Shown: positions 20,768 to 36,138 of the stretch, piece by piece
How the letters are laid out: every line of letters starts with the position of its first letter
How positions within the stretch are numbered: the first letter of the stretch is position 1
DNA from: a virus
Strand: one strand, 5' to 3'
DNA length: 64,000 nucleotides
Virus record (IMG/VR): IMGVR_UViG_3300040758_000214
Location: 64,001-128,000 of that record
The notes under the pieces: model-generated
What the model was told of the DNA's origin: nothing
Database searches by the model: none
What the model saw: only the letters and a program-made list of their open reading frames with translations
Program-made: the position numbers and the translations under genes

Positions 20768-23700
20768 TTATTTTTGTATTCCAATTACTGTAAGATAATT
20801 ATGTAAAAGTTTTACAGTTTCTGGACATCCATCTATGACTTTTGTTTCTTTATGATCAGAATCAATCATTTGTTTAATCCATTGGTTCTTCTTATCAATG
20901 CAATCAGACTTTGTAGTTAAGATCTCTCTTAAATTTTCGGTTGCATCTTGCGCTATTAAGCAGGCGAGTTCCATTTCGCCCGCGCGTTGGCCACCAGGAG
21001 GCTTTAAACCCTTATTTAAAATTCCTTTTCGTTTTGTATTTCCACCTCCAATTGGTTGTAGAGTCTTTTTCATATACAGACCAATTCCTCTTGCAGTCAT
21101 TTTGCTTTCAGCAATATGAAGCATACGAAAAAAGTACATCCAACCACATGCAATCATATTCTCAGTAAAACAATCAAATTCAGGGAGATAAACTTTTTGC
21201 TCATATTTACTTCCAGTGAATTCCATTGCAATTTTAAGCATTTCTTTAGTACATGATTCAAATGGGGGTTGAATTATTGTTAACTCTTCAATAAATTCTT
21301 TAGTTACAATTAAGGGGACTCTTTCTATAAATTGACTAGAATACCACTTTCCTTTTGTATTATCTATCATGGAAATAAATGTAATTAAATAACTCTTTAT
21401 ATCATCTTGAGATTTATCAGAATCTATCATTTGAATTAATTGCTTCTTTAAATTTTCTAAGGCTAATCCTAAATGTAATTCAAATATTTGTCCGATATTC
21501 ATTCTAGATGGCACACCTAGAGCATTTATACAAATATCAACATGTCTTCCATCTTCTAATCTTGGCATTTTATCATGTGGAACAATTCTTGAAATTACTC
21601 CTTTATTTCCATGACGATTTCCTATTTTATCTCCTACTGCAATACTTCTTGTATATACTCCATACATTTCTACATACATTCCATTAATTTTCTCATTTTT
21701 ACTTTTATATTTTCCGGTATGAGAAAATTTATCTAAATCATGATCTCTTATAAATTGTAAAGCTTCATCCTTTGGTAATGAATCATAAATAGGTTTTTGT
21801 AATTCTTTTTCATATTCAATTTGACTTTGAATTTTCTTTTCAACCCAATCATTAAATTCTGGTATTTCTTTATTCCATTCATTTGCATAAATATTAACTT
21901 CATTTACACCAACGACTTGTTTCTTAATTGTTAATGGAATAGCTTCTTCAAAGATTGATGAAAAGTCCATTGGTCCACTTGGTATTTCTTTTAAAATTGC
22001 ATAAGGAGTTCCTGCTTTAAGAACTTCAAAATTTAAAGGAGATTTACTTTTTGTTGCTTTTGGATTTGGTAAAGGTTTATAAATCTTTTTCTTTGTTCTC
22101 CTTTCTTCTTCTAATTCATCTTTAGTTCTATAAGGAAGATTAAATAAAACTTTACTCGGTGATAATGTAAATGATAAATCTATAAAATGAATAGAAGTAA
22201 AGACGTCTTTTCCATTTATTAATCTATCAGATATTAAAATTCCATCTTCAAAATTATATCCATCATATGATGTAACTGCAGTTAATAAATTTTTACCAAT
22301 ATTTATTTTACCATTTTTACAAAAACTAGATTCAATTAAAATATCTCCGGCTTTAAATTTATCTCCAACTTTAAAATAAATTGAATCAATTAAATCTAAA
22401 TTTTCAACATATATTTTTCTATAAAAAGTATCAAAAATATCTACGGTTTTATCATCATATACTACAATCATATGATTAGAATCTAAAAATATTACTTCTC
22501 CATTTTGTTTAGCTCTTCTTACAAATTGAGTTTGATCTGTATATAATCCTTCACATCCACTTTGAATCATTGGAATATCAAAATCTGTAAGACAAATTGA
22601 TTGCCTCATTTGAGAAGATGCCATTTGTAATCTTGTTTGGTCATCATGTTCTAAAAATGGAACTAATGATACAGGAATTGAAATAGGTTGTAATTCTAAA
22701 TATTCATCTGTAAATTTTAAATTTGAGTCAAGAATAGTATTTGGAATTAAATTTTGTAATACTCCACAATTTTCTCTATCTGGAGTATCTACAGGACATA
22801 CTCTACCAAACATAGAAGGGGTAATATCTCTTAAATGTTTAGGTACATTTTCTCTATCAAATCCTCCCGGTCCAACTAAACTTGTTCTTGATAATTTTGT
22901 TAATTCATCAATAGGATTAATTGAAAAGTCAAATTGGACTATATCAGACACATTACAATCTGATAATATCTGAGTTGAATTAATATTAAATTTAGGAGAT
23001 TTGGCAGTTCTATTTGACATACAAAAATCAAATATCGTTTTAGAAACCTTAGCTAAAACGATATATTCAAAACATCTAATTCTTTTATTAATATAATTTG
23101 TATCATCTATTTTTTCAGATTGTATTACATCAATCAATTCTTCTAAAATAGATTGAGTTCTAAAGAATTTAGAAGACATAATATCACACTTTAATATAAT
23201 ATCTAAAGCATATATCATATCTTGACCTTTTTGTGTTGGATCATATTTAGAACTAAATTTTCCTAGTTCTTTAATAAAATCATCTTGTGAATAATCTTCT
23301 GATGTATCATAATATCCTTTTAAATCATAAACTAATTTTTCAATCAATGTGTTTGGTGATTCATATTCCATATCTTTTAAACCAAATTTTTGATCTAAAT
23401 AATCTAATCCATAATATGATAATAATAGAAGAGAAAGAGGAACTATTTTATTTAAAAAACTCACTCTAATAAAAGGTTCCTCTTTAAATTCAATCACTGT
23501 AAGAGTTGCACAATTAGTTCTAATCTTAATTGTTTTTCCCCTTGTTACAACAGGAATATCAAACAATTGAAATAATGGAATCTTTCTCTTTCCATTAATA
23601 TAAAAGTAATTCCCATCTATTAATTTTGGAATAGACATTGATAAATTTATTTCTGCAGTAAGTTTTTTAAATTTAATAACAATATTCTTTTTTAATGTCC

Positions 23701-23890
23701 TATCCAATTCTCCTTCCATTGAAAATCTATGATCCCTTATCCCAAAATCAACAATTTCAAAACCAAGTTCTTCAGCTGGAACTAATATTTGTCTAATCTT
23801 ATTTTCTAAATCCTGATATTCATCTTTTCTAATTGTAAATATATTTTTGTTTAAATTGTGCAATTTGTAAAAAGGATTTATTAAGTCCAT
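20768..23890 (-). CDS. rpoB: DNA-directed RNA polymerase beta subunit (phage, unsplit)
   Basis: GRVCPVDTPDRENCG, PFLEHDD..R.QM, GYNFEDG, GDKIGNRHGNKG, GVPSRMNIGQ, GGQRAGEME. Confidence 0.96.
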   Translation of the reverse strand: MDLINPFYKLHNLNKNIFTIRKDEYQDLENKIRQILVPAEELGFEIVDFGIRDHRFSMEGELDRTLKKNIVIKFKKLTAEINLSMSIPKLIDGNYFYINGKRKIPLFQLFDIPVVTRGKTIKIRTNCATLTVIEFKEEPFIRVSFLNKIVPLSLLLLSYYGLDYLDQKFGLKDMEYESPNTLIEKLVYDLKGYYDTSEDYSQDDFIKELGKFSSKYDPTQKGQDMIYALDIILKCDIMSSKFFRTQSILEELIDVIQSEKIDDTNYINKRIRCFEYIVLAKVSKTIFDFCMSNRTAKSPKFNINSTQILSDCNVSDIVQFDFSINPIDELTKLSRTSLVGPGGFDRENVPKHLRDITPSMFGRVCPVDTPDRENCGVLQNLIPNTILDSNLKFTDEYLELQPISIPVSLVPFLEHDDQTRLQMASSQMRQSICLTDFDIPMIQSGCEGLYTDQTQFVRRAKQNGEVIFLDSNHMIVVYDDKTVDIFDTFYRKIYVENLDLIDSIYFKVGDKFKAGDILIESSFCKNGKINIGKNLLTAVTSYDGYNFEDGILISDRLINGKDVFTSIHFIDLSFTLSPSKVLFNLPYRTKDELEEERRTKKKIYKPLPNPKATKSKSPLNFEVLKAGTPYAILKEIPSGPMDFSSIFEEAIPLTIKKQVVGVNEVNIYANEWNKEIPEFNDWVEKKIQSQIEYEKELQKPIYDSLPKDEALQFIRDHDLDKFSHTGKYKSKNEKINGMYVEMYGVYTRSIAVGDKIGNRHGNKGVISRIVPHDKMPRLEDGRHVDICINALGVPSRMNIGQIFELHLGLALENLKKQLIQMIDSDKSQDDIKSYLITFISMIDNTKGKWYSSQFIERVPLIVTKEFIEELTIIQPPFESCTKEMLKIAMEFTGSKYEQKVYLPEFDCFTENMIACGWMYFFRMLHIAESKMTARGIGLYMKKTLQPIGGGNTKRKGILNKGLKPPGGQRAGEMELACLIAQDATENLREILTTKSDCIDKKNQWIKQMIDSDHKETKVIDGCPETVKLLHNYLTVIGIQK

Positions 23891-23938
23891 TCATGTCTCC
23901 TTTTGGTTTAGTTAAAGTATGGATTGTATGATTTTCAA

Positions 23939-24280
23939 TTAAATATGACGTTGTGAATAATTGTTACAATAAACCATTATTGCCTCATATAATGCTAATT
24001 TAAAATCTCTATTAGAAGTAGTAACAATCAATGTATGTTCTTTAGTATAATATAACTTAACATCAGTTATTTTATTTCCACAACAACAAATATTCTCACT
24101 AAAATTTATAGATAATCCGATTGAATTGATTCTTTGTATAGTGCTTTCAACTAAGATTGAGCTTCCTAAATAATTTGGAAGATATCCAAAGTTTCCCCAA
24201 GGATCACACCATCTATTTGCAGAATCCTTTATCATTCCAAAAACTTTTTCAGCAATTTCTTCATTTGTAATTTTATTCAT
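23939..24280 (-). CDS. Phage ABA-sandwich-like protein inserted between RNAP genes
   Basis: NEEIAEKVFG...LPNY pattern. Confidence 0.4.
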   Translation of the reverse strand: MNKITNEEIAEKVFGMIKDSANRWCDPWGNFGYLPNYLGSSILVESTIQRINSIGLSINFSENICCCGNKITDVKLYYTKEHTLIVTTSNRDFKLALYEAIMVYCNNYSQRHI

Positions 24281-26980
24281 TTAAAACTCCCCTAATAATA
24301 TTTTGTCAAAAATTCCCTCATAGTTTCCAGAATTTAAAAGTCCCTTAATTATTGCAGATTTGGGATTCGAAAAAGCAATAGCAAGTAACCATGACTCATT
24401 TGTTGGAGCACTTTGGATTGAAAGGAACTTCGGTGTAACTTTATCTCTATTTTTCATTAATCTCCATTTATAATGTCCGACCCACATTAATTGCGATACA
24501 ATAGATTCAAAATGAACATGAAGTATTCCTTTGCTATTATTATAAACATCGAATAAATCAGAAACTAAATCTTCAGCAGTTTGGTCTTTTTTAAATTTAT
24601 GGAATAAATCAGACACAATTTTTAAATCACTAATTACATCTGATTGTTCCATATCAACAGATCCTTCTTTAATATTTGCTACACCTGATAAGTGGAAGGT
24701 ACGTAAGGTCAATTGTGTAGTGCACTCCCCCAAAGATTGCGCTCCAAGGATACCTATATACTTACTATCATTTAATTTATGAGTATTTCCATAACATGTT
24801 AGACAAATTTCTGGTGATGTGCAATATATTGGGCTTCTCACTTTTAACATTTGACCAACTAATTCTGAGCATTTATTTAATGTAATTAATTCTAATTTAT
24901 CATTATTTAAATAATATTTATTCACTAACATTTTTGCTTTATTTAAATTTTTAACATATACATTTAAATAATCTTTAGTTTCGCAATCCTTTAAATTTTT
25001 ATTTAATAAAAGATTAACTCCAGTGAATATTAATTTTCTTGATAAATATCCAGAAGTTCCAGTATTTAAAGCAACATCTAATAATCCTTTTCTACAACCA
25101 TAAGTTGAATTGAAGAATTCTTCTTCTGTTAATCCATCAAGTAAATTATTTTTAATTGCTTTAGGATATATTTCTCCATTAAAATTAGATACATATCCTC
25201 TGGTTAAAATCATTTGTTTTGCCTGATCCCAATTTCCACGAGCTCCTGAGTCAATTAAGTACGAATACTCAAAATTTTCTCTTAATGAATTTTCAATTTC
25301 AGGACTTGATAATTTATTAATTTGAGTCATTATATCATTAGACTCATAAATTGAATCTTTCAATTCTTGAACATTTGGAATTTCACAATGATTTAGAGAA
25401 ATAGTAGGAGCAAAAATTGTTGCATATTTGAATCCAACTTCTTTAATTTTATCTAGAGTTTGAACTGTTATATTTTCTGGCCAATTATTTTTAATACCAT
25501 TTAATATTTTTATCAGATTCTTTTTTATAACTATTTCATTTATTACCGGAAAATCTTCTGGCAAACATTCATTAAAGATTTTCATTCCTTCTGTAATTTC
25601 AATTCCTTTATATACAACTTTATTTAATAATGATGAAATTTTATTAGATGTAAGTGCATATAATCCCAATATTATATCTTGAGAAGGAACTGTAGCTAAA
25701 CTTTCATTTGCAGGACTTGTTAAATTTTTAGTAACTATTAATTTATCTAATGTTTCTTGTTTTGTCTTTTCTGTGATGGGAATATACACAGCCATCTGGT
25801 CTCCATCAAAATCTGCATTGAATCCTGAGCAAACTAATGGATGAATTTTAATAACATTATCTAATGAAGTTTTAATTTTAAATCCACAAATACTAAGTCT
25901 ATGAAGAGATGGTTGTCTATTTAACAAACATACTTCACCTTTAACAATTTCAGAGATATCATTGAATAAATCTGGTTTTTTCAATTCGATACAATTATCT
26001 ATAAAATCAATTGCATCATTTAATAATTTAAATTTACTATGTTCTATTAATCTTTTTGCTAATGGTAATTTGAATAACTCTAAAACCATAACATATGGAA
26101 GAACACATTCATCTAAATTTAATTTTGGATCAGGAATAATAACTGCTCTTCCTGAGAAATCAATTCTTTTACCTAATATATTTCCTCTTATTAATCCTTC
26201 TTTTTTACTAAGTTTTGTAACTATATGCGCATATAATTCATTTACATCTTTTTGTAATTGCCTAAAATATTGATAATAGAATTGTTTACTATGTTCTATA
26301 TCTACAATTGTATTTTGCATTGTTTCTTTTTTTGTTAAAATTTGCATATAATATCTATTTATTTCATCTACAATTTGATTATTCTTTTCAGATCCTTTTG
26401 CAGCTGGTCTTAAATCAGGTGGTAAAACTATAATATTTCTTATTAATAATGTATCAATATTATCTCTAATTAATTTCCATGCAGGAATATCATCTGCTAA
26501 TGCTATTGAAATTCCATTAACCATTTCATAAATTGCTTCAGTTCTTTCCCATATTCTACATCCTGCTTTTACATTTTCTAATTCCTTTACTACAACATAA
26601 TCATCTCCATCTTTATATAAAATACTTTTTTCATCTTTTAATAATAAGTCTATAGAATTCATTAAAGATGAGCCACCTAAAGTGGTAAGTAAATCATAAA
26701 ATACTGGATTCATAACTTTAATTGGAATTACAATTTTGGCAAATCTTCTTCTTCTTTCATAACTATTTACAATATCAACTTGACATACATTACATGCTCC
26801 ACCATCTGCTCTAGATATACCAAAGTAAGTTCCACACTGACAAGTATAGTTTCTTAATGGTCCAAAAATCTGTTCAGAAAATAAACCATTAGGATGATAA
26901 TTCTTTTTGTCCATCATTTTAATGGATGAAACTTCCTTTAAATTTTCACAGAAAGCATTGATGTTTAGAAGAGTTGGCAT
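24281..26980 (-). CDS. rpoC: DNA-directed RNA polymerase beta' subunit (phage, unsplit)
   Basis: GLFSEQIFGP, Zn ribbon, VLPPDLRP, GKRIDFSGR, LNRQPSLHR, catalytic NADFDGD, TQLTLRTFH. Confidence 0.97.
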   Translation of the reverse strand: MPTLLNINAFCENLKEVSSIKMMDKKNYHPNGLFSEQIFGPLRNYTCQCGTYFGISRADGGACNVCQVDIVNSYERRRRFAKIVIPIKVMNPVFYDLLTTLGGSSLMNSIDLLLKDEKSILYKDGDDYVVVKELENVKAGCRIWERTEAIYEMVNGISIALADDIPAWKLIRDNIDTLLIRNIIVLPPDLRPAAKGSEKNNQIVDEINRYYMQILTKKETMQNTIVDIEHSKQFYYQYFRQLQKDVNELYAHIVTKLSKKEGLIRGNILGKRIDFSGRAVIIPDPKLNLDECVLPYVMVLELFKLPLAKRLIEHSKFKLLNDAIDFIDNCIELKKPDLFNDISEIVKGEVCLLNRQPSLHRLSICGFKIKTSLDNVIKIHPLVCSGFNADFDGDQMAVYIPITEKTKQETLDKLIVTKNLTSPANESLATVPSQDIILGLYALTSNKISSLLNKVVYKGIEITEGMKIFNECLPEDFPVINEIVIKKNLIKILNGIKNNWPENITVQTLDKIKEVGFKYATIFAPTISLNHCEIPNVQELKDSIYESNDIMTQINKLSSPEIENSLRENFEYSYLIDSGARGNWDQAKQMILTRGYVSNFNGEIYPKAIKNNLLDGLTEEEFFNSTYGCRKGLLDVALNTGTSGYLSRKLIFTGVNLLLNKNLKDCETKDYLNVYVKNLNKAKMLVNKYYLNNDKLELITLNKCSELVGQMLKVRSPIYCTSPEICLTCYGNTHKLNDSKYIGILGAQSLGECTTQLTLRTFHLSGVANIKEGSVDMEQSDVISDLKIVSDLFHKFKKDQTAEDLVSDLFDVYNNSKGILHVHFESIVSQLMWVGHYKWRLMKNRDKVTPKFLSIQSAPTNESWLLAIAFSNPKSAIIKGLLNSGNYEGIFDKILLGEF

Positions 26981-27266: not shown

Positions 27267-27408
27267 TTAATTTTTTTGTACGAATCGAAAAAACATCTAC
27301 CATCATTCCGAAAGACTTATTCACAAACTTTTTTAAACTATCAGAAATATCATCAATTAATTCATGAGCTGTTGTTTCTAATTTACTTTTTTCTTTATTA
27401 TCAGGCAT
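27226..27408 (-). CDS. Small hypothetical protein
   Basis: 60-aa ORF with AGGAG SD. Confidence 0.5.
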   Translation of the reverse strand: MPDNKEKSKLETTAHELIDDISDSLKKFVNKSFGMMVDVFSIRTKKLIEKQVKGVSDEKK

Positions 27409-27904
27409 ATATCAATTTCTCCTTTTCTACATCATTTTCATCATAACCATTTATGTTCCAAATAAATCTTTTATTATTTTTTTGTTTTTCTTTATGAATT
27501 CTAAAACTAAAATTTTTTGGATCTGATATATTAATAAATTCAAAACAATTCCAATATGATTTATAAAAGGTATTATAATTATAAGTTAAGAATTGATGTT
27601 CTATTATTTCTAAATCAGAATCTATTTCAAATAAATTTTGTTTAAAGAATTCTTGTATACAAAATATATTGGTAACTGGATTTTTATTTGGGTGAGGATT
27701 TTTAAACATTATAGATTCCAAATATCCATTTTTTAATTTTATCTCATATTTATTAATAATGAATTTATAAGGTATTTTTATTATTTCATATTTTTTTTCA
27801 TTCTTAATTAATATTTTAGGAATAATGAAACAATTAACTTTTATATGAATGATATTGATCTTATTTTCAACACTTGCTTTAATCAATTCTATTTTGTTTA
27901 GCAT
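27401..27904 (-). CDS. Putative E2 (UBC-fold)-like protein
   Basis: KNPHPNKNPVTNIFCI = HPN motif with downstream Cys; follows an E1-like gene. Confidence 0.45.
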   Translation of the reverse strand: MLNKIELIKASVENKINIIHIKVNCFIIPKILIKNEKKYEIIKIPYKFIINKYEIKLKNGYLESIMFKNPHPNKNPVTNIFCIQEFFKQNLFEIDSDLEIIEHQFLTYNYNTFYKSYWNCFEFINISDPKNFSFRIHKEKQKNNKRFIWNINGYDENDVEKEKLIYA

Positions 27905-27918
27905 AAGTATATGTCTCC

Positions 27919-28791
27919 TTATGCCGAAATAGTTTGAGTAATAATTTTTACTAAATATTTATTCTGTCTTGCTAAAGGCATACAAACTCTATAAGTCATA
28001 TTTTTATCTATTAACATTGATAAAATCTGTTCTCTAACATCATCAACATCTTTTAATTGTGTCATTCTTATTTCTTTTATATTTTCTTTTTTTTCATCTT
28101 TTAGAGAAAATAATATTGGAAACTTTTTATTTCTTTCTATAATATCGGATACATGAAGATCTAAATCTTCTAATATTTCATCACTATCATGACTTTCAAA
28201 TATAACATTGACTCCATCATTATAATTTTTAAATTCATAAAAGTCAGATTTTGTTAAATCTAAATCAATTGAATATAATTTTTTTAAATCTACTAATTCT
28301 TTAATCATTCCACTTTCAAAATATTGAGTAGCCATTAATGCAGCCATTTCAATTTTAGATTTACTAAGTTCTACAGAATATCTTGTATTTACTAATGGCT
28401 TATATGTAATATTTTTTCTACAATCTAAAACTAAAAAATCCGAATATTGAAAATACATTTTAACATCAACTCTATTATTTCTATTATTAAAATTATCAGT
28501 GCAATCTATAATTAAATCAATATTATTCGGGATTATAGTATGATCTATAAAATTTGTTTTAGAAACAATAACTTTAATATCTTTATAATCTCTAAGTATT
28601 TTATTTCTAATTGGATAAACTTTTCCTTGCCCGATATCATTTTGATTATATAATGAATTAATCAAATTTTTCTCATTGACAATATCTGAATCATATAATA
28701 ATAATTCTTTAACACAACCAGATTTAGCTAAATGATATGAAAAGAAACTCCCCAACGATCCAACTCCAGCAATTAAAATCCTATTAAACAT
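27919..28791 (-). CDS. ThiF/E1-like adenylation-domain protein (second copy)
   Basis: IAGVGSLGS, YDSDIVNEKNL, GQGKV, IIDCTDN. Confidence 0.8.
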   Translation of the reverse strand: MFNRILIAGVGSLGSFFSYHLAKSGCVKELLLYDSDIVNEKNLINSLYNQNDIGQGKVYPIRNKILRDYKDIKVIVSKTNFIDHTIIPNNIDLIIDCTDNFNNRNNRVDVKMYFQYSDFLVLDCRKNITYKPLVNTRYSVELSKSKIEMAALMATQYFESGMIKELVDLKKLYSIDLDLTKSDFYEFKNYNDGVNVIFESHDSDEILEDLDLHVSDIIERNKKFPILFSLKDEKKENIKEIRMTQLKDVDDVREQILSMLIDKNMTYRVCMPLARQNKYLVKIITQTISA

Positions 28792-28801: not shown

Positions 28802-29035
28802 CTACTGCTTGAAATTCTCCATCCGTTCTACAATATCATTAATTTCGCCTTGTAAAAACTTAACTTCTGACAAACTAAGTCTTCCTAGTTTTAAAAATTT
28901 TCCGTCATTTGATATTCTTGTCAATTGTAATTTAGGGGCTCCACCCTTATAAGAATAAACTTCACCTTTAATATTAACATCATCTTCTAAAGGTTTAATT
29001 TCAAATAATAATTTGTCATCTTCTTGATTATACAT
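28802..29035 (-). CDS. PC4/YdbC-like ssDNA-binding protein
   Basis: VYSYKGGAPKLQLTR...KLGRLSLSEV. Confidence 0.6.
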   Translation of the reverse strand: MYNQEDDKLLFEIKPLEDDVNIKGEVYSYKGGAPKLQLTRISNDGKFLKLGRLSLSEVKFLQGEINDIVERMENFKQ

Positions 29036-29105: not shown

Positions 29106-29567
29106 TTATTCGGAATAGATATCTATATGATCAGGCATGTATTCACTTTTGAATTGAAAATATTTTGCTGCTACTTTTATGGGATAACTCTTTGGAACAT
29201 CTATTTTTATTCCAGATTTATCATTTTTCTTTGCTGGACAAAATAATAAATTATTTTGAATGGCTTCTTGTGCAGCTCTTTCTAATTTTTCAGAATCTGA
29301 AATAATAATTTTTTCAATCCAAAATTCAACATTCCTATCAGGGATTATTTCATATGAATTTTCTCCGCTCATTAAAGCTTTCATTGCTCTTCCAAAAGCA
29401 ATATTTCTAGATTTCTTTCTAATATGATTATCTAGAATTGAACAGATAGAAATTCCCCTTGCAATTAATTTTCTATCTGCATCTTCAATTTCACATACTG
29501 TAAATGCATTATTTAGTATGTCAGTTTTTTTATATGAATATCTTATTCTTAGATTACTCACGTCCAT
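29106..29567 (-). CDS. Hypothetical phage protein (G.S.C...D....R.IA..RA family)
   Basis: ARGISICSILDNHIRKKSRNIAFGRA. Confidence 0.5.
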   Translation of the reverse strand: MDVSNLRIRYSYKKTDILNNAFTVCEIEDADRKLIARGISICSILDNHIRKKSRNIAFGRAMKALMSGENSYEIIPDRNVEFWIEKIIISDSEKLERAAQEAIQNNLLFCPAKKNDKSGIKIDVPKSYPIKVAAKYFQFKSEYMPDHIDIYSE

Positions 29568-29591: not shown

Positions 29592-29623
29592 AGGGATGCA
29601 TTACTTTAATATAATGCATCCCT
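29592..29623 (-). terminator. Intrinsic terminator-like hairpin after Ubl gene
   Basis: AGGGATGCATTA...TAATGCATCCCT. Confidence 0.65.
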
Positions 29624-29638: not shown

Positions 29639-30283
29639 TTACCCTTTACGGCCACTAGTTTTCAGATATTCAAGATTATCATTTTCCTGAATAACATAAT
29701 TCAATCCTACTTCTTTTCCACACGCAAGGGCACGAGGAATATTGCTACCAATATTCAGAACTTCCTTAAGAAACTCTGCAACCTGTCCAACAGTTTTTCC
29801 GATTACATTAAAATTCCCAGAGGAAGCTCCACAAGAAACATGAATAGTGGATTTAATTCTATCGGATGAAGAATTAGGATTAACAACAGTATTCTTCATT
29901 GTTATTTCCATCGTAGAAATACCACCAATTGACGGACCAGTAACTGTGGATCTTACAGGAGCACTAGCCACACCAATCTTAGAAAGAATAGCTGCAACTA
30001 ATTCATCCTTAGGTTTTTTACTCATTCCAGAAATACTAAGTTCCTGACAAATTTCACGAAGATCAGAATTGGTCAACTCTAGAAGACCTTCTTTTGTATA
30101 ACGAGGAGCTGTAGCAGAAGAAGTCTGATTGTTGGCGGTTGAACCAGCCTTGGATAAAATTGCTTCCATGATAACATCTTTACGTGCTTTACTCATTCCA
30201 GTGATACCAAGACTCTGGCAAATTTCACGAAGCTCACCATTGGTTTTTTCAACTAATTCGCCATAATTATAAGTTCTTGCCAT
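29639..30283 (-). CDS. Ubiquitin-like (beta-grasp) protein with two N-terminal Rho-N/HEH repeats, C-terminus ...SGRKG
   Basis: Two ~43-aa repeats (ELREICQSLGITGMSK / DLREICQELSISGMSK); C-terminal ~70 aa GKTVGQV...YVIQENDNLEYLKTSGRKG. Confidence 0.8.
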   Translation of the reverse strand: MARTYNYGELVEKTNGELREICQSLGITGMSKARKDVIMEAILSKAGSTANNQTSSATAPRYTKEGLLELTNSDLREICQELSISGMSKKPKDELVAAILSKIGVASAPVRSTVTGPSIGGISTMEITMKNTVVNPNSSSDRIKSTIHVSCGASSGNFNVIGKTVGQVAEFLKEVLNIGSNIPRALACGKEVGLNYVIQENDNLEYLKTSGRKG

Positions 30284-30376
30284 TTGTAATTCTCCTATTC
30301 ATTTTTTGGTTTTTACTACAATTAAAGTTATCCTTGTATAGAAAGGATTCTTAATTTAAAATTGTATAATTTGGTC

Positions 30377-31066
30377 TTACTTTTTCAATTCTCTAGACTT
30401 TGAATCTACTTTCATTGTTGTAATGTCAAAATATGCTTCTGAGTTTTTATAATTTTCCTGCAATACATTATAAAACGCACAGCACATTAGTGTTGCCGCA
30501 GCTAAATTGGTAAAATATAATTGAGGTTCACCAGCTGCAGATAATTCTTGGCAACTCATTTCATCTGGTGATTTATCATCAGGTTCATCAATTTCTGGAT
30601 GATAATCAGTCAAACTTGGCGTTAAATCTTCACCTCCTTTTCTTACATATATTTGAACATTACCATCTACATAATCATTCCCCCCGGAGATTAATGTAAT
30701 GTTGTTCAAACTTTTTGAATAATCTGATACAAGTTTTCTAGTTTTATGATTATCAACCGCTAAAAATACAGTATCACCATCTTCAATCAAAGTATCAATT
30801 ACATCTTTATTTACATAAAATGGAAATGATTTAAATTCAATATTATTAAATTTAGATTGAAGTTCAAATGATTTCACTTGTGCCTTATTTCCCATATTGG
30901 AAAAATCTTGTCTTTCAAAATTTTTGGTTTCATATTCATCACCATCAATTAAAGTCACATTTGCTTTGGTATTTGAATAATTAATAAACCTTGAAATTTT
31001 TTCTGATAAAATAGATCCAATTCCTCCTAATCCAATAATTTTAATCGTATGGCCAGAGTGGTACAC
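30377..31066 (-). CDS. E1/ThiF ubiquitin-activating-like enzyme
   Basis: GLGGIGS, IDGD, KNFERQ, NKA, AVDNHKTR, SGGN, putative catalytic MSC, QLYFTN. Confidence 0.9.
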   Translation of the reverse strand: MYHSGHTIKIIGLGGIGSILSEKISRFINYSNTKANVTLIDGDEYETKNFERQDFSNMGNKAQVKSFELQSKFNNIEFKSFPFYVNKDVIDTLIEDGDTVFLAVDNHKTRKLVSDYSKSLNNITLISGGNDYVDGNVQIYVRKGGEDLTPSLTDYHPEIDEPDDKSPDEMSCQELSAAGEPQLYFTNLAAATLMCCAFYNVLQENYKNSEAYFDITTMKVDSKSRELKK

Positions 31067-32228
31067 TTATAAGCTCCTCTGTTTCTATAATTTTACTACG
31101 ATCATCTTTTTCTTTTTTGGTTATAAATGTATCATCTTTTTTGCATTTTTTAATCATACCTAATAATTCTTTTTCATCTTTAGCAAACTTTAAATTACAT
31201 TTATAACATGGATTAAAATATTTAGATTGTTGTGATTTAATGGCAGATGATGATATAGTTTGAGGTAAATTAGGTGTATGAATAGTTTTCTTTTGATTAT
31301 ACTCATGATCATCTACACCACCATTAACTCTATTCATATACCTATAAAACCACATATCATTTTCAAGGTCATCATTTATATTTCCACCATATCCACCATC
31401 ACTATAAAAACTATATCCATTATTATGTTGTCCATATCCTCCAAAACTATAAGCTTTTCTGAAATTATATTTCTCAACATTTATTAACCATTTTGGATCA
31501 CATTCTACACTTGATAAATGTTGTGAAATTATATATCCTGTTGTAGTTTTCATTTCCTTTTGATAAACTTTTTCTTTCCCAATTACTTCATATTTTGGTC
31601 TAAACATTGACTTAAAATATTTTGTATATTCAGTTTTATAAACTCCATCAATATAATCCAATGGATCAACTTCAACTCTATAACCATTTGACGCTATGGA
31701 TGCTACAATTTTATGAGTATCAGAATCAATTTCTCCAACAGTAATATGCAAACCATCAAAATCTTCTTCATCATGAGTATCTGTTCCAGAGTGAAAGGCG
31801 CTGAATCCTGGATGACTATGAATTGAACATACTGGTTGATAATTTTTTATAGATATCTGATAATTATCTTCCACATTAACACTTGCTCCTGAAACTGATT
31901 GCTCTGGAATATGCACCTTAAATGCCTTTTTCTTTGGATTATAATAAATAATTGCTAATCCTTCTGCTCTATGCCCATGATATACTTTTTTGAAAAAGTC
32001 AAATATTTGTGCATATATAATTCCAGGAATTTTTGGAATATCCATTGATGCATAACATCCAATATCTTCTAGAAATGATATATTTTTTACTGGAACTAAA
32101 CTATCTATTAATCCCATTTTTTTCTTTAAATATACACCACCTTTAGCGATAATATAACATATATCGTCTTTTGGCATTCCTTGTTCTTTATCAAATGTAT
32201 ATACATTAAACATACTATTATTAGACAT
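31041..32228 (-). CDS. JAB/MPN (JAMM) metallo-isopeptidase
   Basis: AEG...PEQSVSGASV...SIHSHPGFSAFHSGTD..DE...GLHITVG. Confidence 0.9.
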   Translation of the reverse strand: MSNNSMFNVYTFDKEQGMPKDDICYIIAKGGVYLKKKMGLIDSLVPVKNISFLEDIGCYASMDIPKIPGIIYAQIFDFFKKVYHGHRAEGLAIIYYNPKKKAFKVHIPEQSVSGASVNVEDNYQISIKNYQPVCSIHSHPGFSAFHSGTDTHDEEDFDGLHITVGEIDSDTHKIVASIASNGYRVEVDPLDYIDGVYKTEYTKYFKSMFRPKYEVIGKEKVYQKEMKTTTGYIISQHLSSVECDPKWLINVEKYNFRKAYSFGGYGQHNNGYSFYSDGGYGGNINDDLENDMWFYRYMNRVNGGVDDHEYNQKKTIHTPNLPQTISSSAIKSQQSKYFNPCYKCNLKFAKDEKELLGMIKKCKKDDTFITKKEKDDRSKIIETEELISVPLWPYD

Positions 32229-34767
32229 TGAAAAACCTCCAGTCCTTTCTATAAATTCTTGGTAAATAATCTATGGGAATAAATCCACTTAAGAAATTTG
32301 GTAAAACATAAGTATACGTAGATGGTGCTTTGGCATTGGATTCAATAAATCTTTGTGTACATATACCAGACAACTTTTTGGATGAAATATTTTGTGTAGC
32401 ATAGGTATAAGAATCGCATAATGCTGATTGAATATCTATAGACTCTTGTTTTGTTAATACCAATTCTCTAATATTATTTTTATCAATGATTATATCTCCC
32501 GGTTGAAATTTAATATGATCAGTATTTTCAAAAATTGTAACTTTTAATTTCTTATAAACTGGATCCTCCCTATTTACAAATTTAAAATTCTTTAGATTTT
32601 CTTCTTCCATCCAAATTGCAGAATAATTAGAAGTTAGAATTAAAGGATATTTATCTGTATCAACTAATATTGCCATGACTAAATGTGTATCTTTCTTTAA
32701 GAATAATGGAATTTTATTTACAGTTACAATTTTGTCTCCAACTGAAATTCCATTTAGATTAGTTACACATTTCCTAACTTTCTCTACAGAAATTATCATA
32801 GATCTAAAATCAATGTATTCAATACTTTTTATATTACCTTTACAATCTACAGTATCAATATACATTTTAAATGTTTCTTTACAGAAATTAAATCCTGTTA
32901 TATTTCTATGAATAAACATTTCTGGTGGATTATCCCAATCAACATAAATAATATTATCTCCAATTTTAAAATCAATATTAAAACATAATCCTTTTAATTG
33001 TATAGAATTATTATCTTTTAAAATTTCAGATTTTACTATATCTAATCTTTGTTCCATTATAATCGAATCATTATTTCTAGAATTTTTAATCATTAGAATA
33101 ATATTATTATTAGTTATATATAATTTATGATCATTTGTAATTTGGCAAATACTTTCTTTCAAATCATTGATTATAATTGTATTTCCATATGAGAAAATTG
33201 AAAGATTTTCTCTTTCATTCTCAACATGAGGAGCTATTCTATTATCTATATCAGAATGCTTAATATGATATAAGTTTTCTCCTAATTTAAATTGTAAATA
33301 AAATATCCCCCTAATTATTTCTGCTTTTTCAAAAGTTATTATAGCATTTCCAAATATAATTGATGCTCTAGTTCTTGATTTACCTTTATCTACATATAAG
33401 TTTCCTTTCTTAAAATTAATATTATTTATAGTTAAATCTTCTGGATTTATTATTTCTATATTCTTTAATGATTCTAAAATATAATAATCAGTTCCAATTA
33501 AAAATTCTATTTTTCCTCTTCTATTACTTCTAATTTTCTCAATTTTCTTAAATTCTTTAACTTCAGAATTTTTATCAATACAAATTATATCTCCTATTTT
33601 ATAAATTATTCCATTCAATTCATACTCAGTTAAAATATTTTCTTTATTATATGTATTTTTTATTGCAGATAATAAAGAACTATCACTTATTTTATATTTA
33701 ACAAATTCTCCTTTTGAATTCTCTAACATTACTCCACTTATAGTACTAGAATCTATAAATGATTGTTTAGTTGCTGGATCTATTTTTATAGTCCCTAAAA
33801 ATTCATAGATATAATGTTTTTCATCATTAATTACAATTTCATCTCCAATTCCTAATGCATGTTCATCTGTGAAATAATGACTTTGACAATGTGATGTGAC
33901 AGTTTTTGGATCTAATTTAACAGAAGGAATATTACATATCATATCTATAGTATCTTTAAATAAATATGCTCCAGCATTATCAATATTACTTCTATCCCCA
34001 CCATTAAAATTTCTAGTCAAATCTTGTATTTCTGAAATGATATTAAAATTAAATGTTTTCCATTTTGTAGAAAATATAAACATAGGATCAATTGATGTAT
34101 TATATTCCCAATGTAAAAATGATGAAACTTCTGGTACATCATTATACATATTATAAACATATGTAATATCACCATTGAATTGATTAGCCCAAAATGCATT
34201 AATTAATTCTTCTACTTTTTCTCCTAATGATAGATTAGTATTTTTGGCATTATTTGGACCTAAACATACATGACCATTAGAGTCAAGATTTGTAAAATTT
34301 GCATGTAATAAATAATCATGAAATGATGACATTGGGTGTAATCTAAAAAATACTCTAAGTTCTTTAGGGCAATCATCCAAAAATGCAAGGAAGAAAACTA
34401 CATATGGAAATGATAAATTAAAATAATAAGGAGGTTTATTTTTTAGAAAGTCGGAATAACCATACTCTTTTAATCTTCCAGTTCGTCTTAAATTTTCTAT
34501 AACAGTATCGAATTGTAAATCAACACAAATATTTCTTATAGCAGGAGGTTCTTCAATAATTAAATATGTATAATTTTCAATTTGTTTGTAAAACCTACAG
34601 TTTCTAGGTAAAATATCAGATTGAATATTGTTTGAGGCATATAATCTATCATAAAAATCTTTAGTTTTAATATGTTTTACTTCTGAAAGAACATTAAATG
34701 TATCTGAATTTTCTGTTAATGGTTTTACTAAACGAACTTCATTTTGATTAATTAAAATATGTTCCAT
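32221..34767 (-). CDS. Prokaryotic E2 family D domain plus ~600-aa tail with repeated KOW/SH3-like motifs
   Basis: IEEPPAIR, SFPYVVF, ANFTNLDSNGHVCLG, FWANQFN; tail motifs IGDEI, KIGDII, KKGNLY, KIGDNI, SVGDKI, QPGDII. Confidence 0.75.
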   Translation of the reverse strand: MEHILINQNEVRLVKPLTENSDTFNVLSEVKHIKTKDFYDRLYASNNIQSDILPRNCRFYKQIENYTYLIIEEPPAIRNICVDLQFDTVIENLRRTGRLKEYGYSDFLKNKPPYYFNLSFPYVVFFLAFLDDCPKELRVFFRLHPMSSFHDYLLHANFTNLDSNGHVCLGPNNAKNTNLSLGEKVEELINAFWANQFNGDITYVYNMYNDVPEVSSFLHWEYNTSIDPMFIFSTKWKTFNFNIISEIQDLTRNFNGGDRSNIDNAGAYLFKDTIDMICNIPSVKLDPKTVTSHCQSHYFTDEHALGIGDEIVINDEKHYIYEFLGTIKIDPATKQSFIDSSTISGVMLENSKGEFVKYKISDSSLLSAIKNTYNKENILTEYELNGIIYKIGDIICIDKNSEVKEFKKIEKIRSNRRGKIEFLIGTDYYILESLKNIEIINPEDLTINNINFKKGNLYVDKGKSRTRASIIFGNAIITFEKAEIIRGIFYLQFKLGENLYHIKHSDIDNRIAPHVENERENLSIFSYGNTIIINDLKESICQITNDHKLYITNNNIILMIKNSRNNDSIIMEQRLDIVKSEILKDNNSIQLKGLCFNIDFKIGDNIIYVDWDNPPEMFIHRNITGFNFCKETFKMYIDTVDCKGNIKSIEYIDFRSMIISVEKVRKCVTNLNGISVGDKIVTVNKIPLFLKKDTHLVMAILVDTDKYPLILTSNYSAIWMEEENLKNFKFVNREDPVYKKLKVTIFENTDHIKFQPGDIIIDKNNIRELVLTKQESIDIQSALCDSYTYATQNISSKKLSGICTQRFIESNAKAPSTYTYVLPNFLSGFIPIDYLPRIYRKDWRFFNV

Positions 34768-34803: not shown

Positions 34804-35106
34804 TTATTTTTTAATATAGAATCTTTCTTTTGTTGGTGTTTCTAAATATTCAACTCTATCATATGGAATACTTCTCCATTCTTTCTTTTCTAAATCAAAA
34901 ACTCTAAGGATATTTTGTTTTACTAAATTTAATATTGCTGCTAAATCAACTTTTTTAGGTTGTTTTATTTTTGGAATCAAATCAAATTGTAAAGTACATT
35001 TCATCATCCTTATTGTTTTATCTTTTTTAATAAATCTAATTATCACTTCTGGTTGTGTTCTTATAATCTTTAAAAAATCAATTGCATTATTTATTGGTTC
35101 ATTCAT
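34804..35106 (-). CDS. WYL-like SH3 beta-barrel protein
   Basis: FIKKDKTIRMMKCTL...VFDLEKKEWRSI. Confidence 0.7.
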   Translation of the reverse strand: MNEPINNAIDFLKIIRTQPEVIIRFIKKDKTIRMMKCTLQFDLIPKIKQPKKVDLAAILNLVKQNILRVFDLEKKEWRSIPYDRVEYLETPTKERFYIKK

Positions 35107-35112
35107 ATCATA

Positions 35113-36138
35113 TTAAACTCCTCTTTTTTCTGTATGAAGTATTTCATCTTTATTATCGGACAAGTTCGTGTGGAGAACACAGGTCCAATTACATCTAAGA
35201 CAAAGTTCTTTCTTATCCCTTTTAATTAAATCTAAGAATAAAGGATTTATTTTTCCATCGTAATCCAAGAAATTTGTAACTGAAGCAGATGTAGTATGTC
35301 TTCCACCAATCCTGAGGCATAATCTACATGCTCCATCCGCGTCAATTGTGATATTTGTTAAATTCTTTTCTAATTCACAATCATATTCACTTGGTAATAT
35401 CTCAAATAATTTTGGTAATAATTTATCTGCCATATGAACATCTAATTTTTCATCTATTATTCTTTTAAATATGTCAGATAATTCTTTTGTTGGTTTGACT
35501 AAAACATTTTCATCTGTAACATTTGCAAAATCATAATATGGAGATTTAGAAATATCTATAAATGTAATATCAGATGATATTCCATTATTTGAAAGTTCTT
35601 TAACTAATGGATAAAGATATTTAACATTGTCATTATCAACTGTTATTTCTGCAACCAAATCTTTTATTTTTCCTTTTAAACTCTTAAGTCTATTAAACCC
35701 TGCAATGCATTTTTTGTATCTATCATTGTCTTTAGATATATTAGGATCAAATATTAAAGGATCTACGGAACTTGATAAACCTTTCACCTCTACTTTTTCT
35801 AAAAGATCATTTAATGATTTCTGAACTGAATTTGAATTATTTGTGATAATTGTATAATATATATCATTTGAATTACAATATGCAATTATTTGTGGTAAAT
35901 CATTTCTTAATAAGGGTTCTCCTCCATAGAAAATATGAAAGCAATCTGGGTTATGTTTTTTTAGTTTAGATAATCCCTCAAGTACTGTTTTGGTTGACAT
36001 TTCATTCTTATAAAAATGCCCAATATCAGGATATTCTCTTGGTTTATTTTCATAGTCAGATACTATTCTACAGTATGAACATTTTAAATTACAACGTCTT
36101 GTTAATAACCAATTTACTATTCTTATTTTATCTGCCAT
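35113..36138 (-). CDS. Radical SAM enzyme with C-terminal SPASM/twitch-like Cys cluster
   Basis: CNLKCSYC, YGGEPLLR, ITN; CRLC...CLRCNWTC. Confidence 0.9.
   Translation of the reverse strand: MADKIRIVNWLLTRRCNLKCSYCRIVSDYENKPREYPDIGHFYKNEMSTKTVLEGLSKLKKHNPDCFHIFYGGEPLLRNDLPQIIAYCNSNDIYYTIITNNSNSVQKSLNDLLEKVEVKGLSSSVDPLIFDPNISKDNDRYKKCIAGFNRLKSLKGKIKDLVAEITVDNDNVKYLYPLVKELSNNGISSDITFIDISKSPYYDFANVTDENVLVKPTKELSDIFKRIIDEKLDVHMADKLLPKLFEILPSEYDCELEKNLTNITIDADGACRLCLRIGGRHTTSASVTNFLDYDGKINPLFLDLIKRDKKELCLRCNWTCVLHTNLSDNKDEILHTEKRGV

What the first reader, a model, noticed from the sequence alone, without database searches (positions are those of the whole stretch)
29639..30283. Ubl modifier fused to two Rho-N/HEH nucleic-acid-binding repeats
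Seen: aa ~5-47 and ~62-104 are direct repeats (L.E.TN..LREICQ.L.I.GMSK..KD....AILSK.G), then an S/T/P linker and the Ubl domain. The gene has a strong SD, its own terminator and a less AT-biased codon usage, suggesting high expression. Inference: conjugation would graft DNA/RNA-binding modules onto targets, tethering them to nucleic acid rather than marking them for degradation.
Basis: partly seen in the sequence, partly recalled or inferred. Interest (0 to 1): 0.72.

Follow-up and report, generated by a model that had tools for sequence, protein, structure and literature searches.

The report
Phage ubiquitin-like modifier with HeH repeats
A large uncultured phage encodes a ubiquitin-like tag with two small Rho-N/SAP-type heads, next to its own activating, conjugating and trimming enzymes; this looks like a virus-owned ubiquitin-style tagging system of a kind so far studied only as bacterial anti-phage defence.

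Summary
Window 29639-30283 (-) encodes 214 aa: two Rho_N/HeH repeats (57% identical; Pfam E 3.4e-15), a linker, and a C-terminal beta-grasp ending in a free Gly (..GRKG).

The gene lies in a cluster conserved in about 80 jumbo-phage contigs: Prok-E2_D-type E2 (848 aa), JAMM peptidase, intact ThiF E1 (invariant Cys172), the Ubl, a second ThiF lacking the RQ motif, an HPN-x8-C UBC-like E2, then RNA polymerase beta'/beta.

Relatives support a processed, conjugatable modifier. Most end exactly at KG and others carry short caps (KGC, KGR). Some are head-to-tail poly-Ubl arrays of 2-4 units joined at KG. One (L058) is a tandem of two whole HeH-Ubl units.

A complex model puts the tail Gly in the E1 nucleotide loop (score 0.74, best control 0.08).

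HeH+Ubl is the commonest architecture in the family, with 0 to 3 HeH copies. A GC-rich hairpin follows the gene in 67 of 68 loci.

Nucleic-acid binding by the repeats, covalent conjugation and the targets remain untested.

I rate it a new variant of a known kind (Bil/PRTRC-like systems). I found no paper describing it. Other first-stage notes of this scan describe the same cluster on this same genome; none was followed up.

The parts
29639..30283 (-). HeH-HeH-Ubl gene, 214 aa including the stop codon
   Evidence: ORF list. Family alignment A1.
30143..30271 (-). Rho_N/HeH repeat 1 (aa 5-47)
   Evidence: Pfam Rho_N. pLDDT above 90. Z 8.0, rmsd 1.4 A over 47 residues to Rho 1-47.
29972..30100 (-). 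Rho_N/HeH repeat 2 (aa 62-104); this is the copy shared with single-repeat relatives
   Evidence: 57% identity to repeat 1. Aligns with the sole HeH of 146-184-aa homologues. Z 7.0-7.5 to Rho 1-47.
29864..29971 (-). S/T/P-rich linker plus conserved pre-Ubl segment (aa 105-140)
   Evidence: pLDDT below 50. Family consensus T..EF...S..TKP....G.K.
29642..29863 (-). Beta-grasp Ubl domain (aa 141-214) with the invariant VSCGA motif (SCGASSG in this protein) and terminal ..G-x-K-G
   Evidence: The tail and the SCGASSG loop form the predicted E1 interface.
30292..30296 (-). Shine-Dalgarno AGGAG, 8 nt upstream of the ATG
   Evidence: Read from the sequence.
29593..29623 (-). 13-bp stem-loop 3' of the gene; a GC-rich hairpin is found here across the family
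   Evidence: -20.1 kcal/mol, z -4.7. A hairpin is present in 67 of 68 distinct loci, with median MFE -24.6 against -5 to -10 after neighbouring genes. There is no U tract in this window.
30377..31066 (-). E1a: compact ThiF-type adenylating enzyme, 229 aa, predicted activator of the Ubl
   Evidence: Pfam ThiF 1.5e-18. Invariant GxGGxG, N49, R52, Q53, K61, D105, N106, R110 and C172. Complex score 0.74 against 0.08 for the best control.
31041..32228 (-). JAMM/JAB metallopeptidase, 395 aa, predicted to process precursors and remove conjugates
   Evidence: Prok-JAB 2.9e-5. PRTRC_A 7.2e-7. Invariant E89, H137-x-H139, S147 and D150.
32221..34767 (-). 848-aa protein: N-terminal Prok-E2_D-type E2 domain (about aa 1-250, invariant Cys168) plus an uncharacterised C-terminal part of about 600 aa
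   Evidence: Alignment A3. Prok-E2_D matched in 21 of 25 homologues, best E 3.8e-7, the window's own copy 0.071. The C-terminal part gave no usable look-alike.
27919..28791 (-). E1b: second ThiF-like protein, 290 aa, lacking the RQ motif and with a conserved exact C-terminus
   Evidence: ThiF 1.7e-15 over the N-terminal half only. Alignment A5 and its C-terminal columns.
27401..27904 (-). p167: small UBC-like E2 candidate with invariant HPN-x8-C
   Evidence: Alignment A2. AF2 pLDDT 81. All 50 rows shown in the VIA table are E2 enzymes, Z 4.3-5.2 over about 90-100 residues. The PDB profile top hit is an E2, aligned at HPN..C, E 0.19.
29106..29567 (-). p153: variable insert between the Ubl and E1b (28 of 82 loci), function unknown
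28802..29035 (-). p77: variable insert (16 of 82 loci), function unknown

Best explanation
The gene encodes a phage ubiquitin-like modifier of the ThiS/MoaD-type beta-grasp class. Its N-terminus carries two helix-extended-helix (Rho_N/SAP-like) modules.

Proposed pathway:
1. In this phage the protein is made mature, with a free C-terminal Gly214. In relatives with a cap or with poly-Ubl arrays, the neighbouring JAMM peptidase cuts after KG.
2. E1a binds the beta-grasp through the invariant SCGASSG loop and adenylates Gly214.
3. The acyl group passes to E1a Cys172, then to the Cys of an E2: Cys168 of the 848-aa Prok-E2_D protein, Cys82 of the small HPN-x8-C protein, or both.
4. The modifier ends on target amino groups.
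5. The JAMM peptidase can reverse the mark.

Because the HeH modules lie upstream of the Ubl, every conjugate carries them. I infer that they either bring the modifier to nucleic-acid-associated substrates or tether modified proteins to DNA or RNA. The number of HeH copies (0-3 across the family) would tune avidity.

A hairpin that recurs right after the gene, a strong Shine-Dalgarno site and less AT-biased codons fit a need for much more modifier than enzymes.

Status of the steps. Shown by sequence analysis or structure modelling: the domains, the catalytic motifs, the synteny, the precursor forms and a modelled E1 docking. Inferred: every chemical step, the targets and nucleic-acid binding.
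For: Domains:
- Rho_N twice.
- Beta-grasp fold; poly-Ubl relatives reach the Pfam ThiS cut-off (43 bits).

C-terminus:
- G211, K213 and G214 are invariant, and the protein ends at Gly.
- Among 71 distinct viral homologues, most end at KG. Fifteen end KGC; others end KGR, KGF, GKGYK, RKGVILTK or RKGIDVGL.
- L058 encodes two complete HeH-Ubl units joined at ..GRKG|ADET.
- P0045, P0049, P0090, P0130 and P0152 are arrays of 3-4 Ubl units joined at KG and ending in a cap.

Enzymes:
- E1a has every ThiF/MoeB catalytic residue and an invariant Cys172.
- The JAMM motif is intact.
- The E2 domain matches Prok-E2_D in 21 of 25 homologues, with invariant Cys168.
- p167 has invariant HPN-x8-C and a UBC-like model.

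Synteny:
- The order E2, JAB, E1a, Ubl, E1b, E2' is kept in about 80 viral loci.
- A poly-Ubl locus has the same E2, JAB and E1 set.

Docking:
- ipSAE is 0.74 against 0.08 for the best of 3 controls. That mark was reached by 58 of 80 solved complexes and 2 of 110 mismatched pairs. The runs share at least 89% of contacts and the partner's pLDDT is at least 77.
- Tail residues 207-214 lie against E1a residues 12-17, 103-107 and 110.
- This pair resembles solved E1-Ubl complexes, so the pass may partly reflect likeness.

Expression signals.

Precedent: bacterial BilA Ubls have a conserved Gly followed by 0-9 residues that the JAB enzyme BilC removes (PMC10557695). Bacterial Ubls carry varied N-terminal domains (PMC11601603).
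Against: - No experiment exists, and no cultured phage with this gene was found.
- The terminus is K-G rather than G-G.
- E1a is a short, single-domain ThiF of the kind that serves sulfur carriers, without a separate Cys domain or UFD.
- Fold scores for the beta-grasp and for p167 are middling (Z about 5).
- The HeH repeats are about charge-neutral, and nucleic-acid binding by such isolated modules is not established for this family.
- No E3 and no target is identifiable.
Confidence: 0.68

Rival explanations
1. Sulfur carrier. The beta-grasp would be a ThiS/MoaD/TtuB-like thiocarboxylate carrier, activated by E1a, that delivers sulfur for a nucleic-acid or cofactor modification. The HeH repeats would dock it on the nucleic-acid substrate, and the JAMM peptidase would only uncap precursors, as Mec+/CysO and QbsD/QbsE do.
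For: - The best sequence-family hits are ThiS and TGS.
- TtuB and MoaD are among the fold hits.
- E1a is a compact ThiF/MoeB-type enzyme.
- The phage carries DNA-hypermodification-type genes: FolE2 and a radical SAM gene just upstream of the cluster.
Against: - Pfam scans of the cluster genes and of the 20 largest other ORFs of the window found no rhodanese, cysteine desulfurase or PP-loop sulfurtransferase.
- Two E2-like proteins with invariant Cys are conserved in the cluster.
- Head-to-tail poly-Ubl arrays and whole-unit tandems have no precedent that I know of among sulfur carriers.
- The terminus is KG, not GG.
Confidence: 0.1
2. Non-covalent adaptor. The HeH-Ubl would never be ligated. 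The beta-grasp would act as a docking domain that recruits the E1, E2 or JAB proteins, or other factors, to nucleic acid. The true conjugated species would be something else, for instance the conserved C-terminus of E1b.
For: - Many UBL-domain proteins are adaptors (established knowledge).
- E1b homologues all stop at the same conserved C-terminus (..ETGAA or ..TISA), and E1b sits next to its own small E2.
Against: - The terminal Gly is invariant at the very end of the Ubl.
- Relatives with caps or poly-Ubl arrays need cleavage exactly after KG.
- The model threads the tail into the E1a nucleotide loop.
- The E1b tail region shows no profile similarity to the Ubl.
Confidence: 0.07
3. Counter-defence mimic. 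The cluster would exist mainly to interfere with host ubiquitin-like immunity (Bil, or CBASS Cap2/Cap3), for example by deconjugating or competing. The HeH-Ubl would then be a decoy rather than a tag for phage-chosen targets.
For: - Host Ubl systems attack phage assembly (10.1101/2023.09.04.556158).
- The E1 proteins here give weak hits to CBASS E1-E2 models.
Against: - The whole cluster sits at a fixed place next to the RNA polymerase genes in about 80 divergent contigs, as core genes do and unlike mobile anti-defence cargo.
- A decoy would not need its own complete E1, E2 and JAMM set, nor HeH modules.
- This rival concerns biological purpose; it is compatible with the same chemistry.
Confidence: 0.1

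Closest known systems
Bacterial Bil (BilABCD) ubiquitin-like conjugation systems, Type I and Type II
   Same: Both have a Ubl, an E2, a JAB/JAMM peptidase and an E1 in one cluster. In both, the Ubl has a conserved C-terminal Gly followed in some members by 0-9 residues that the JAB removes (PMC10557695; 10.1101/2023.09.04.556158). Models of both place the Ubl tail in the E1 nucleotide loop.
   Different: This cluster is encoded by a phage as a syntenic core block, not by a bacterial defence island. Its E1 is a 229-aa single-domain ThiF with a separate RQ-less ThiF, rather than one polypeptide holding inactive-adenylation, active-adenylation and Cys domains. It has two E2-like genes, one fused to a tail of about 600 aa. 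The Ubl ends in KG and carries HeH modules. No Bil-specific profile was available to test membership.
PRTRC / Prok-E2_D - JAB - ThiF cassettes of mobile elements (Iyer, Burroughs and Aravind; PMC1779556)
   Same: The nearest sequence families for the enzymes are Prok-E2_D, PRTRC_A for the JAB and PRTRC_ThiF for E1a. A related E2-JAB-ThiF trio is annotated in Bacillus jumbo phage vB_BauM_KLEB27-3.
   Different: All NCBIfam matches are far below the curated cut-offs. No ParB partner is seen. The Ubl does not match the PRTRC or Prok_Ub Ubl profiles and has HeH modules.
Bacterial Ubls with N-terminal accessory domains (Gong et al., PMC11601603)
   Same: [quoted passage not shown]
   Different: The accessory domains reported there are N/G-rich tails, coiled coils and tandem DUF1508; Rho_N/HeH is not among them. 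Their three-domain Ubls form Ca2+-dependent filaments, whereas the arrays here are repeated whole units each ending in KG, as polyubiquitin precursors are.
Eukaryotic ubiquitin genes (polyubiquitin; ubiquitin-ribosomal protein fusions) and SUMO with SAP-domain PIAS ligases
   Same: The gene organisation is parallel: head-to-tail arrays with a one-residue cap (often Cys), and Ubl followed by a basic extension (P0068, P0158). In the SUMO pathway a SAP/HeH module links the modifier system to chromatin (established knowledge).
   Different: No close sequence relationship exists. Here the HeH sits on the modifier itself rather than on the E3. The similarity in gene organisation is probably convergent.
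Lambda/T1 tail assembly protein I (Ubl) with the TAPK JAB peptidase
   Same: This is a phage-encoded beta-grasp with a conserved C-terminal Gly next to a JAB peptidase (PMC1779556).
   Different: The tail-assembly module has no E1 or E2 and lies among tail genes. The present cluster has a full cascade and lies among transcription and DNA-metabolism genes.

Membership tests
Rho_N / HeH (Pfam PF07498; SAP-LEM-HeH fold) | Profile match above the curated cut-off | tested here: met
   56.2 bits against a cut-off of 24.9, two stretches. 22 of 25 family members match.
Rho_N / HeH (Pfam PF07498; SAP-LEM-HeH fold) | Helix-extended-helix fold superposable on Rho residues 1-47 | tested here: met
   pLDDT above 90. 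Z 7.0-8.0, rmsd 1.1-2.0 A over 44-49 residues. The FAN1 and Hcc-1 SAP domains also match, Z about 5.5.
Rho_N / HeH (Pfam PF07498; SAP-LEM-HeH fold) | Binds DNA or RNA | not testable with these tools
   Only indirect evidence: the conserved G-M-S-K-K-x-K turn and viral Rho_N/SAP 'virion core' look-alikes in BFVD.
Ubiquitin-like beta-grasp modifiers (ThiS/MoaD/Ub superfamily) | Beta-grasp fold | tested here: met
   The AF2 topology is beta-beta-alpha-beta-beta-beta. Top Foldseek rows are beta-grasp proteins, and the VIA rows that cover residues 141-214 are all beta-grasp, Z 5.1-5.8; these scores are middling. ThiS matches 13 of 25 members, best E 2.2e-4. Poly-Ubl forms score 41-43 bits against a cut-off of 22.5.
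Ubiquitin-like beta-grasp modifiers (ThiS/MoaD/Ub superfamily) | Conserved Gly at the C-terminus or just before a short removable cap | tested here: met
   G214 is invariant.
Ubiquitin-like beta-grasp modifiers (ThiS/MoaD/Ub superfamily) | Cognate E1 with intact adenylation site and catalytic Cys; tail fits the site | tested here: met
   E1a invariants. Complex model 0.74 against 0.08 for the best control, with the caveat of likeness to solved complexes.
Ubiquitin-like beta-grasp modifiers (ThiS/MoaD/Ub superfamily) | Covalent attachment to target proteins | not testable with these tools
   Needs biochemistry or mass spectrometry.
Bil (BilABCD) systems | Ubl, E2, JAB and E1 encoded together | tested here: met
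Bil (BilABCD) systems | Multidomain E1 (inactive adenylation, active adenylation and Cys domains) in one polypeptide | tested here: not met
   E1a is 229 aa with a single ThiF domain; the second, RQ-less ThiF is a separate gene.
Bil (BilABCD) systems | Sequence-profile membership | tested here: inconclusive
   PADLOC 2.0 gave only weak CBASS E1-E2 hits; no Bil-specific model matched or was recognisable.
PRTRC cassette (NCBIfam TIGR03734-03742) | Matches above the curated cut-offs for PRTRC_A, PRTRC_B and PRTRC_ThiF | tested here: not met
   28.9 bits against 101.8, 11.2 against 131.45 and 35.9 against 144.75. The proteins are related but not members.
Prok-E2_D (PF14460) | Profile match and conserved catalytic Cys | tested here: inconclusive
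   The window's copy scores E 0.071, below the cut-off, while 21 of 25 homologues match, best 3.8e-7. Cys168 is invariant.
UBC-fold E2 (for p167) | HPN motif followed by a catalytic Cys on a UBC-like fold | tested here: met
   HPN-x8-C is invariant in 25 sequences of 23% mean identity. All 50 rows shown in the VIA table are E2 enzymes, Z 4.3-5.2; this Z is modest. The Pfam UQ_con model matched only 1 of 25 members, at E 0.055.
Sulfur-carrier ThiS/MoaD/TtuB systems | C-terminal Gly-Gly and a partner sulfurtransferase or synthase in the neighbourhood | tested here: not met
   The terminus is K-G. No such partner appears among the Pfam-scanned cluster genes or the 20 largest other ORFs of the window.

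The most novel reading that the evidence does not exclude
A clade of jumbo phages, and a wider set of viral elements, would run their own SUMO-like pathway. In it the modifier itself carries chromatin-type HeH/SAP modules, so that conjugation covalently installs nucleic-acid anchors on chosen proteins. Candidate targets are phage or host transcription, nucleoid or packaged proteins; the cluster always abuts the phage RNA polymerase genes. The same Ubl family would have independently arrived at polyubiquitin-like arrays, one-residue caps and Ubl-basic-extension fusions, which are hallmarks of eukaryotic ubiquitin genes.
Probability: 0.3. Interest if true: 0.85.

Novelty: new variant of a known kind. 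Interest (0 to 1): 0.66.

Why it matters
Complete ubiquitin-like conjugation cascades in prokaryotes have so far been characterised as bacterial anti-phage defence (Bil, CBASS Cap2/Cap3) or left without a function (Bub, PRTRC).

Here the cascade belongs to the virus. It sits at a fixed core position in about 80 divergent jumbo-phage contigs, and its modifier carries HeH modules.

If conjugation is confirmed, three things follow:
- phages would use ubiquitin-style tagging for their own programme;
- we would have a natural example of a modifier that delivers a binding module to its targets;
- there would be a tractable family in which poly-Ubl precursors, caps and Ubl-extension fusions evolved outside eukaryotes.

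The short E1, the two E2s and the JAMM enzyme would also make a compact system for protein-ligation tools.

Tried and rejected
- Cultured relatives. tblastn of the Ubl against 50,697 GenBank phage records found nothing. E1a finds only distant ThiF genes in Bacillus jumbo phages, whose clusters lack a recognisable Ubl.
- Cellular genomes. A scan of 185,579 species genomes gave 2 loci. Both are MAG contigs; one has the same length, 34,718 bp, as viral contig L054. I read them as binned phage DNA.
- PDB sequence-profile searches. The Ubl core's best hit is the Dun1 FHA domain (E 0.0055), over the short NG..V....L..GD..F stretch only. I rejected this as a local motif shared by FHA and ThiS-like domains, because the model and every fold hit are beta-grasp. 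The E2 domain of the 848-aa protein found nothing.
- E1b tail as a fused Ubl. hhalign against the Ubl profile gave probability 0.4%, so the idea is unsupported.
Neither PDB nor Pfam gave a PC4 hit, for the profile or for 16 members.
- p153. No PDB or Pfam relative was found.
- C-terminal 600 aa of the 848-aa protein. ESM Atlas gave no usable feature hit, and all structural rows but one had TM scores of 0.26 or less; that one reached 0.46 on the match's side, over 111 residues of an unannotated 172-aa cluster.
- P0046 (3308 aa, 19 stretches) from the profile search is a false positive: a repetitive surface protein whose weak scores add up. Counts at E up to 1e-3 are therefore upper bounds.
- Expression data.
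- Literature. Five full-text searches found no description of this phage cluster or of a Rho_N-Ubl fusion. The library lacks most subscription-journal papers, so prior description cannot be excluded.
Full report
**What is there**

Window 29639-30283 (minus strand) is a 214-aa ORF.
- It is preceded by AGGAG 8 nt upstream of the ATG.
- Residues 2-47 and 59-104 are 57% identical, BLASTP E 3e-16.
- Both repeats match Pfam Rho_N: E 3.4e-15, 56.2 bits against a cut-off of 24.9, with weaker SAP and HeH hits.
- AlphaFold2, run with a 25-sequence alignment, models both repeats as helix-extended-helix units at pLDDT above 90. It models residues 105-156 as disordered and residues 146-207 as beta-beta-alpha-beta-beta-beta at pLDDT 77-92.
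- The repeats superpose on E. coli Rho residues 1-47 (Z 7-8, rmsd 1.1-2.0 A). They also match the FAN1 and Hcc-1 SAP domains.
- The C-terminal domain aligns with ISG15, MoaD, ubiquitin, Fubi and an archaeal ubiquitin at Z 5.1-5.8. The top Foldseek rows are beta-grasp proteins, at weak E-values.
- At sequence level, 13 of 25 family members touch ThiS and 19 touch TGS. Poly-Ubl relatives exceed the ThiS cut-off.

**Genomic setting**

The window is part of a 143-kb IMG/VR virus record, estimated 46% complete. It has 28% GC and nearly all long ORFs lie on one strand. It encodes a T4-type terminase, topoisomerase II, SbcCD-like proteins, FolE2 and unsplit RNA polymerase beta' and beta.

Around the gene, in transcription order:
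- An 848-aa protein. Its first 250 residues or so belong to Prok-E2_D (21 of 25 homologues match, best E 3.8e-7) and carry an invariant Cys168.
- A JAMM peptidase with invariant E89, H137-x-H139, S147 and D150.
- E1a, a 229-aa ThiF with invariant GxGGxG, N49, R52, Q53, K61, D105, N106, R110 and Cys172.
- The HeH-HeH-Ubl.
- Two variable small ORFs.
- E1b, a ThiF-like protein that keeps the glycine loop and the D-C-x-D motif but has N-S in place of R-Q.
- p167, which has an invariant HPN-x8-C and a confident model (pLDDT 81). All 50 rows shown in its VIA structural-alignment table are E2 enzymes, Z 4.3-5.2.
- A small ORF, then the RNA polymerase beta' and beta genes.

This order is kept in two metagenome contigs and 80 viral contigs of up to 277 kb.

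**Evidence that the Ubl is a processed, activatable modifier**

- In the family alignment, G211, K213 and G214 are invariant, and the protein ends at Gly.
- Among 71 distinct viral homologues, most end at ..G-x-K-G. Fifteen carry one extra Cys, and others carry R, F, YK, VILTK, IDVGL or DRKGC.
- L058 encodes a 319-aa head-to-tail fusion of two diverged, complete HeH-linker-Ubl units, joined directly after ..GRKG.
- A profile of the Ubl core, searched against 1.84 billion representative proteins, gave 246 hits at E up to 1e-10.
- The sequences fetched from that search include stand-alone 68-73-aa Ubls and arrays of two to four units, each ending in KG and followed by a terminal cap. They also include Ubls followed after KG by lysine-rich or globular extensions.
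- One four-unit array lies beside an E2 homologous to the 848-aa protein's N-terminus (hhalign probability 97.4%), a JAB and a ThiF.

These forms only make sense if a peptidase cuts after KG. The JAB enzyme BilC does exactly this for BilA in bacteria (PMC10557695).

- A complex prediction of E1a with the Ubl core scored 0.74 against 0.08 for the best control. That mark was reached by 58 of 80 solved complexes and 2 of 110 mismatched pairs. The runs share at least 89% of contacts, and the partner's pLDDT is at least 77.
- In that model, tail residues 207-214 lie against the E1a glycine loop, D105, N106 and R110. The invariant SCGASSG loop lies against E1a residues 212-221.
- This pair resembles solved E1-Ubl complexes, so the pass may partly be memory. 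It does explain why those two Ubl segments never vary.

**The HeH part**

The fusion is not a peculiarity of this gene. Of 189 family proteins examined, 113 have one HeH before the Ubl and 14 have two (one of these shows three by Pfam). Many of the rest have a diverged HeH-like N-terminus.

The two-repeat form recurs in several divergent members. The repeat nearest the Ubl is the one shared with single-repeat relatives.

I could not test nucleic-acid binding:
- The conserved G-M-S-K-K-x-K turn is basic, but each repeat is about charge-neutral overall.
- From general knowledge, the Rho 1-47 bundle is not by itself an established RNA-binding unit, whereas SAP domains bind AT-rich DNA.
- BFVD look-alikes are tandem Rho_N/SAP proteins of large DNA viruses, some annotated as virion core proteins. 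This is suggestive only.

**Expression signals**

Gene GC is 37.5% and GC3 0.22, against 19-30% and 0.11-0.17 for most listed genes; only the 77-aa ORF p77 comes near in GC3, at 0.205.

The 13-bp hairpin after the stop codon (-20.1 kcal/mol, z -4.7) lacks a U tract here. A GC-rich hairpin nevertheless occurs within 70 nt of the stop in 67 of 68 distinct loci. The median MFE is -24.6 kcal/mol, against -5 to -10 after E1a, JAB, E1b or p167, and several loci have T tracts.

The sequence differs between loci but the hairpin recurs. I read it as a conserved terminator, attenuator or stabiliser that ends the E2-JAB-E1a-Ubl unit.

**Interpretation**

Best explanation, confidence about 0.68: this is a phage-owned ubiquitin-like conjugation pathway whose modifier carries HeH modules onto its targets or to nucleic-acid-bound substrates.

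The chemistry is inferred from motifs, synteny, precursor forms and a model. The nucleic-acid role is the weakest link; I put it at about one in three.

Rivals:
- A sulfur-carrier role. This is weakened by the two Cys-bearing E2s, the poly-Ubl arrays and the absence of sulfurtransferases.
- A non-covalent adaptor.
- A counter-defence mimic, which concerns purpose rather than chemistry.

**Comparison with known systems**

- Composition and precursor logic match Bil systems. The enzymes are nearest to the Prok-E2_D and PRTRC families but fall far below the curated cut-offs.
- The E1 is split into a short active ThiF and a separate degenerate one, unlike BilD.
- N-terminal accessory domains on bacterial Ubls are known: N/G-rich tails, coiled coils and DUF1508 (PMC11601603). 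Rho_N/HeH is not among them.
- Five literature searches found no description of a phage-encoded cascade of this type. The library omits most subscription-journal papers.
- Close relatives are essentially absent from 185,579 cellular genomes and from cultured phages.

Verdict: a new variant of a known kind; interest 0.66.

Other first-stage notes of this scan describe the same cluster on this same genome. None had been followed up, and I treated them only as leads.

Noticed in passing
window 27919-28791 (-); alignment A5: All 26 E1b homologues stop at the same conserved C-terminus (..ELIPETGAA; ..IITQTISA in this subclade), and the gene ends 14 nt before the HPN-x8-C E2-like ORF. This could be a second, E1-borne acyl donor, or only a structural tail. 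hhalign finds no relation to the Ubl profile.
   Followed up: partly
L058:9989-10948: A 319-aa ORF made of two diverged complete HeH-linker-Ubl units joined right after ..GRKG, like a di-ubiquitin precursor that includes the accessory domain.
   Followed up: partly
P0045, P0049, P0090, P0130, P0152 (poly-Ubl); P0068, P0158, P0178 (Ubl plus C-terminal extension): The same Ubl family occurs as arrays of 2-4 units with terminal caps, and as Ubl followed after KG by lysine-rich tails or a 150-aa domain. This parallels polyubiquitin and ubiquitin-ribosomal-protein fusion genes.
   Followed up: partly
L085 (Bacillus phage vB_BauM_KLEB27-3, OM634661.1 160827-175372): A cultured Bacillus jumbo phage has a 270-aa ORF (255 aa as annotated) with an E2-like P..N......C.G motif, a JAB annotated 'PRTRC_A domain' and a ThiF in a row, but no recognisable Ubl ORF beside them. 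It could serve as an experimental entry point to phage E2-JAB-E1 modules.
   Followed up: partly
L030:5414-5776, L045:5415-5852, L052:5333-5773: In one subclade an extra ORF just upstream of the big E2 encodes a single Rho_N-like head followed by a long acidic, proline-rich tail and no Ubl.
   Followed up: no
window 29106-29567 (-), alignment A8: p153 belongs to a family present in 28 of 82 loci, with invariant T23, C25, R37-G38, I41-C42-S43 and A61. It has no Pfam, PHROG or PDB relative.
   Followed up: partly
window 20768-26980 (-): The RNA polymerase beta' (899 aa) and beta (1040 aa) genes are unsplit, with beta' transcribed first. The nearest cultured relatives are Rhizobium jumbo phages, at about 25% identity.
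   Followed up: partly
window 34804-36138 (-): A radical SAM protein (341 aa) and a WYL_2 Sm-like protein (100 aa) precede the cluster in most loci (65 and 66 of 82). The window also encodes FolE2 at 12405-13259, which suggests base hypermodification.
   Followed up: no
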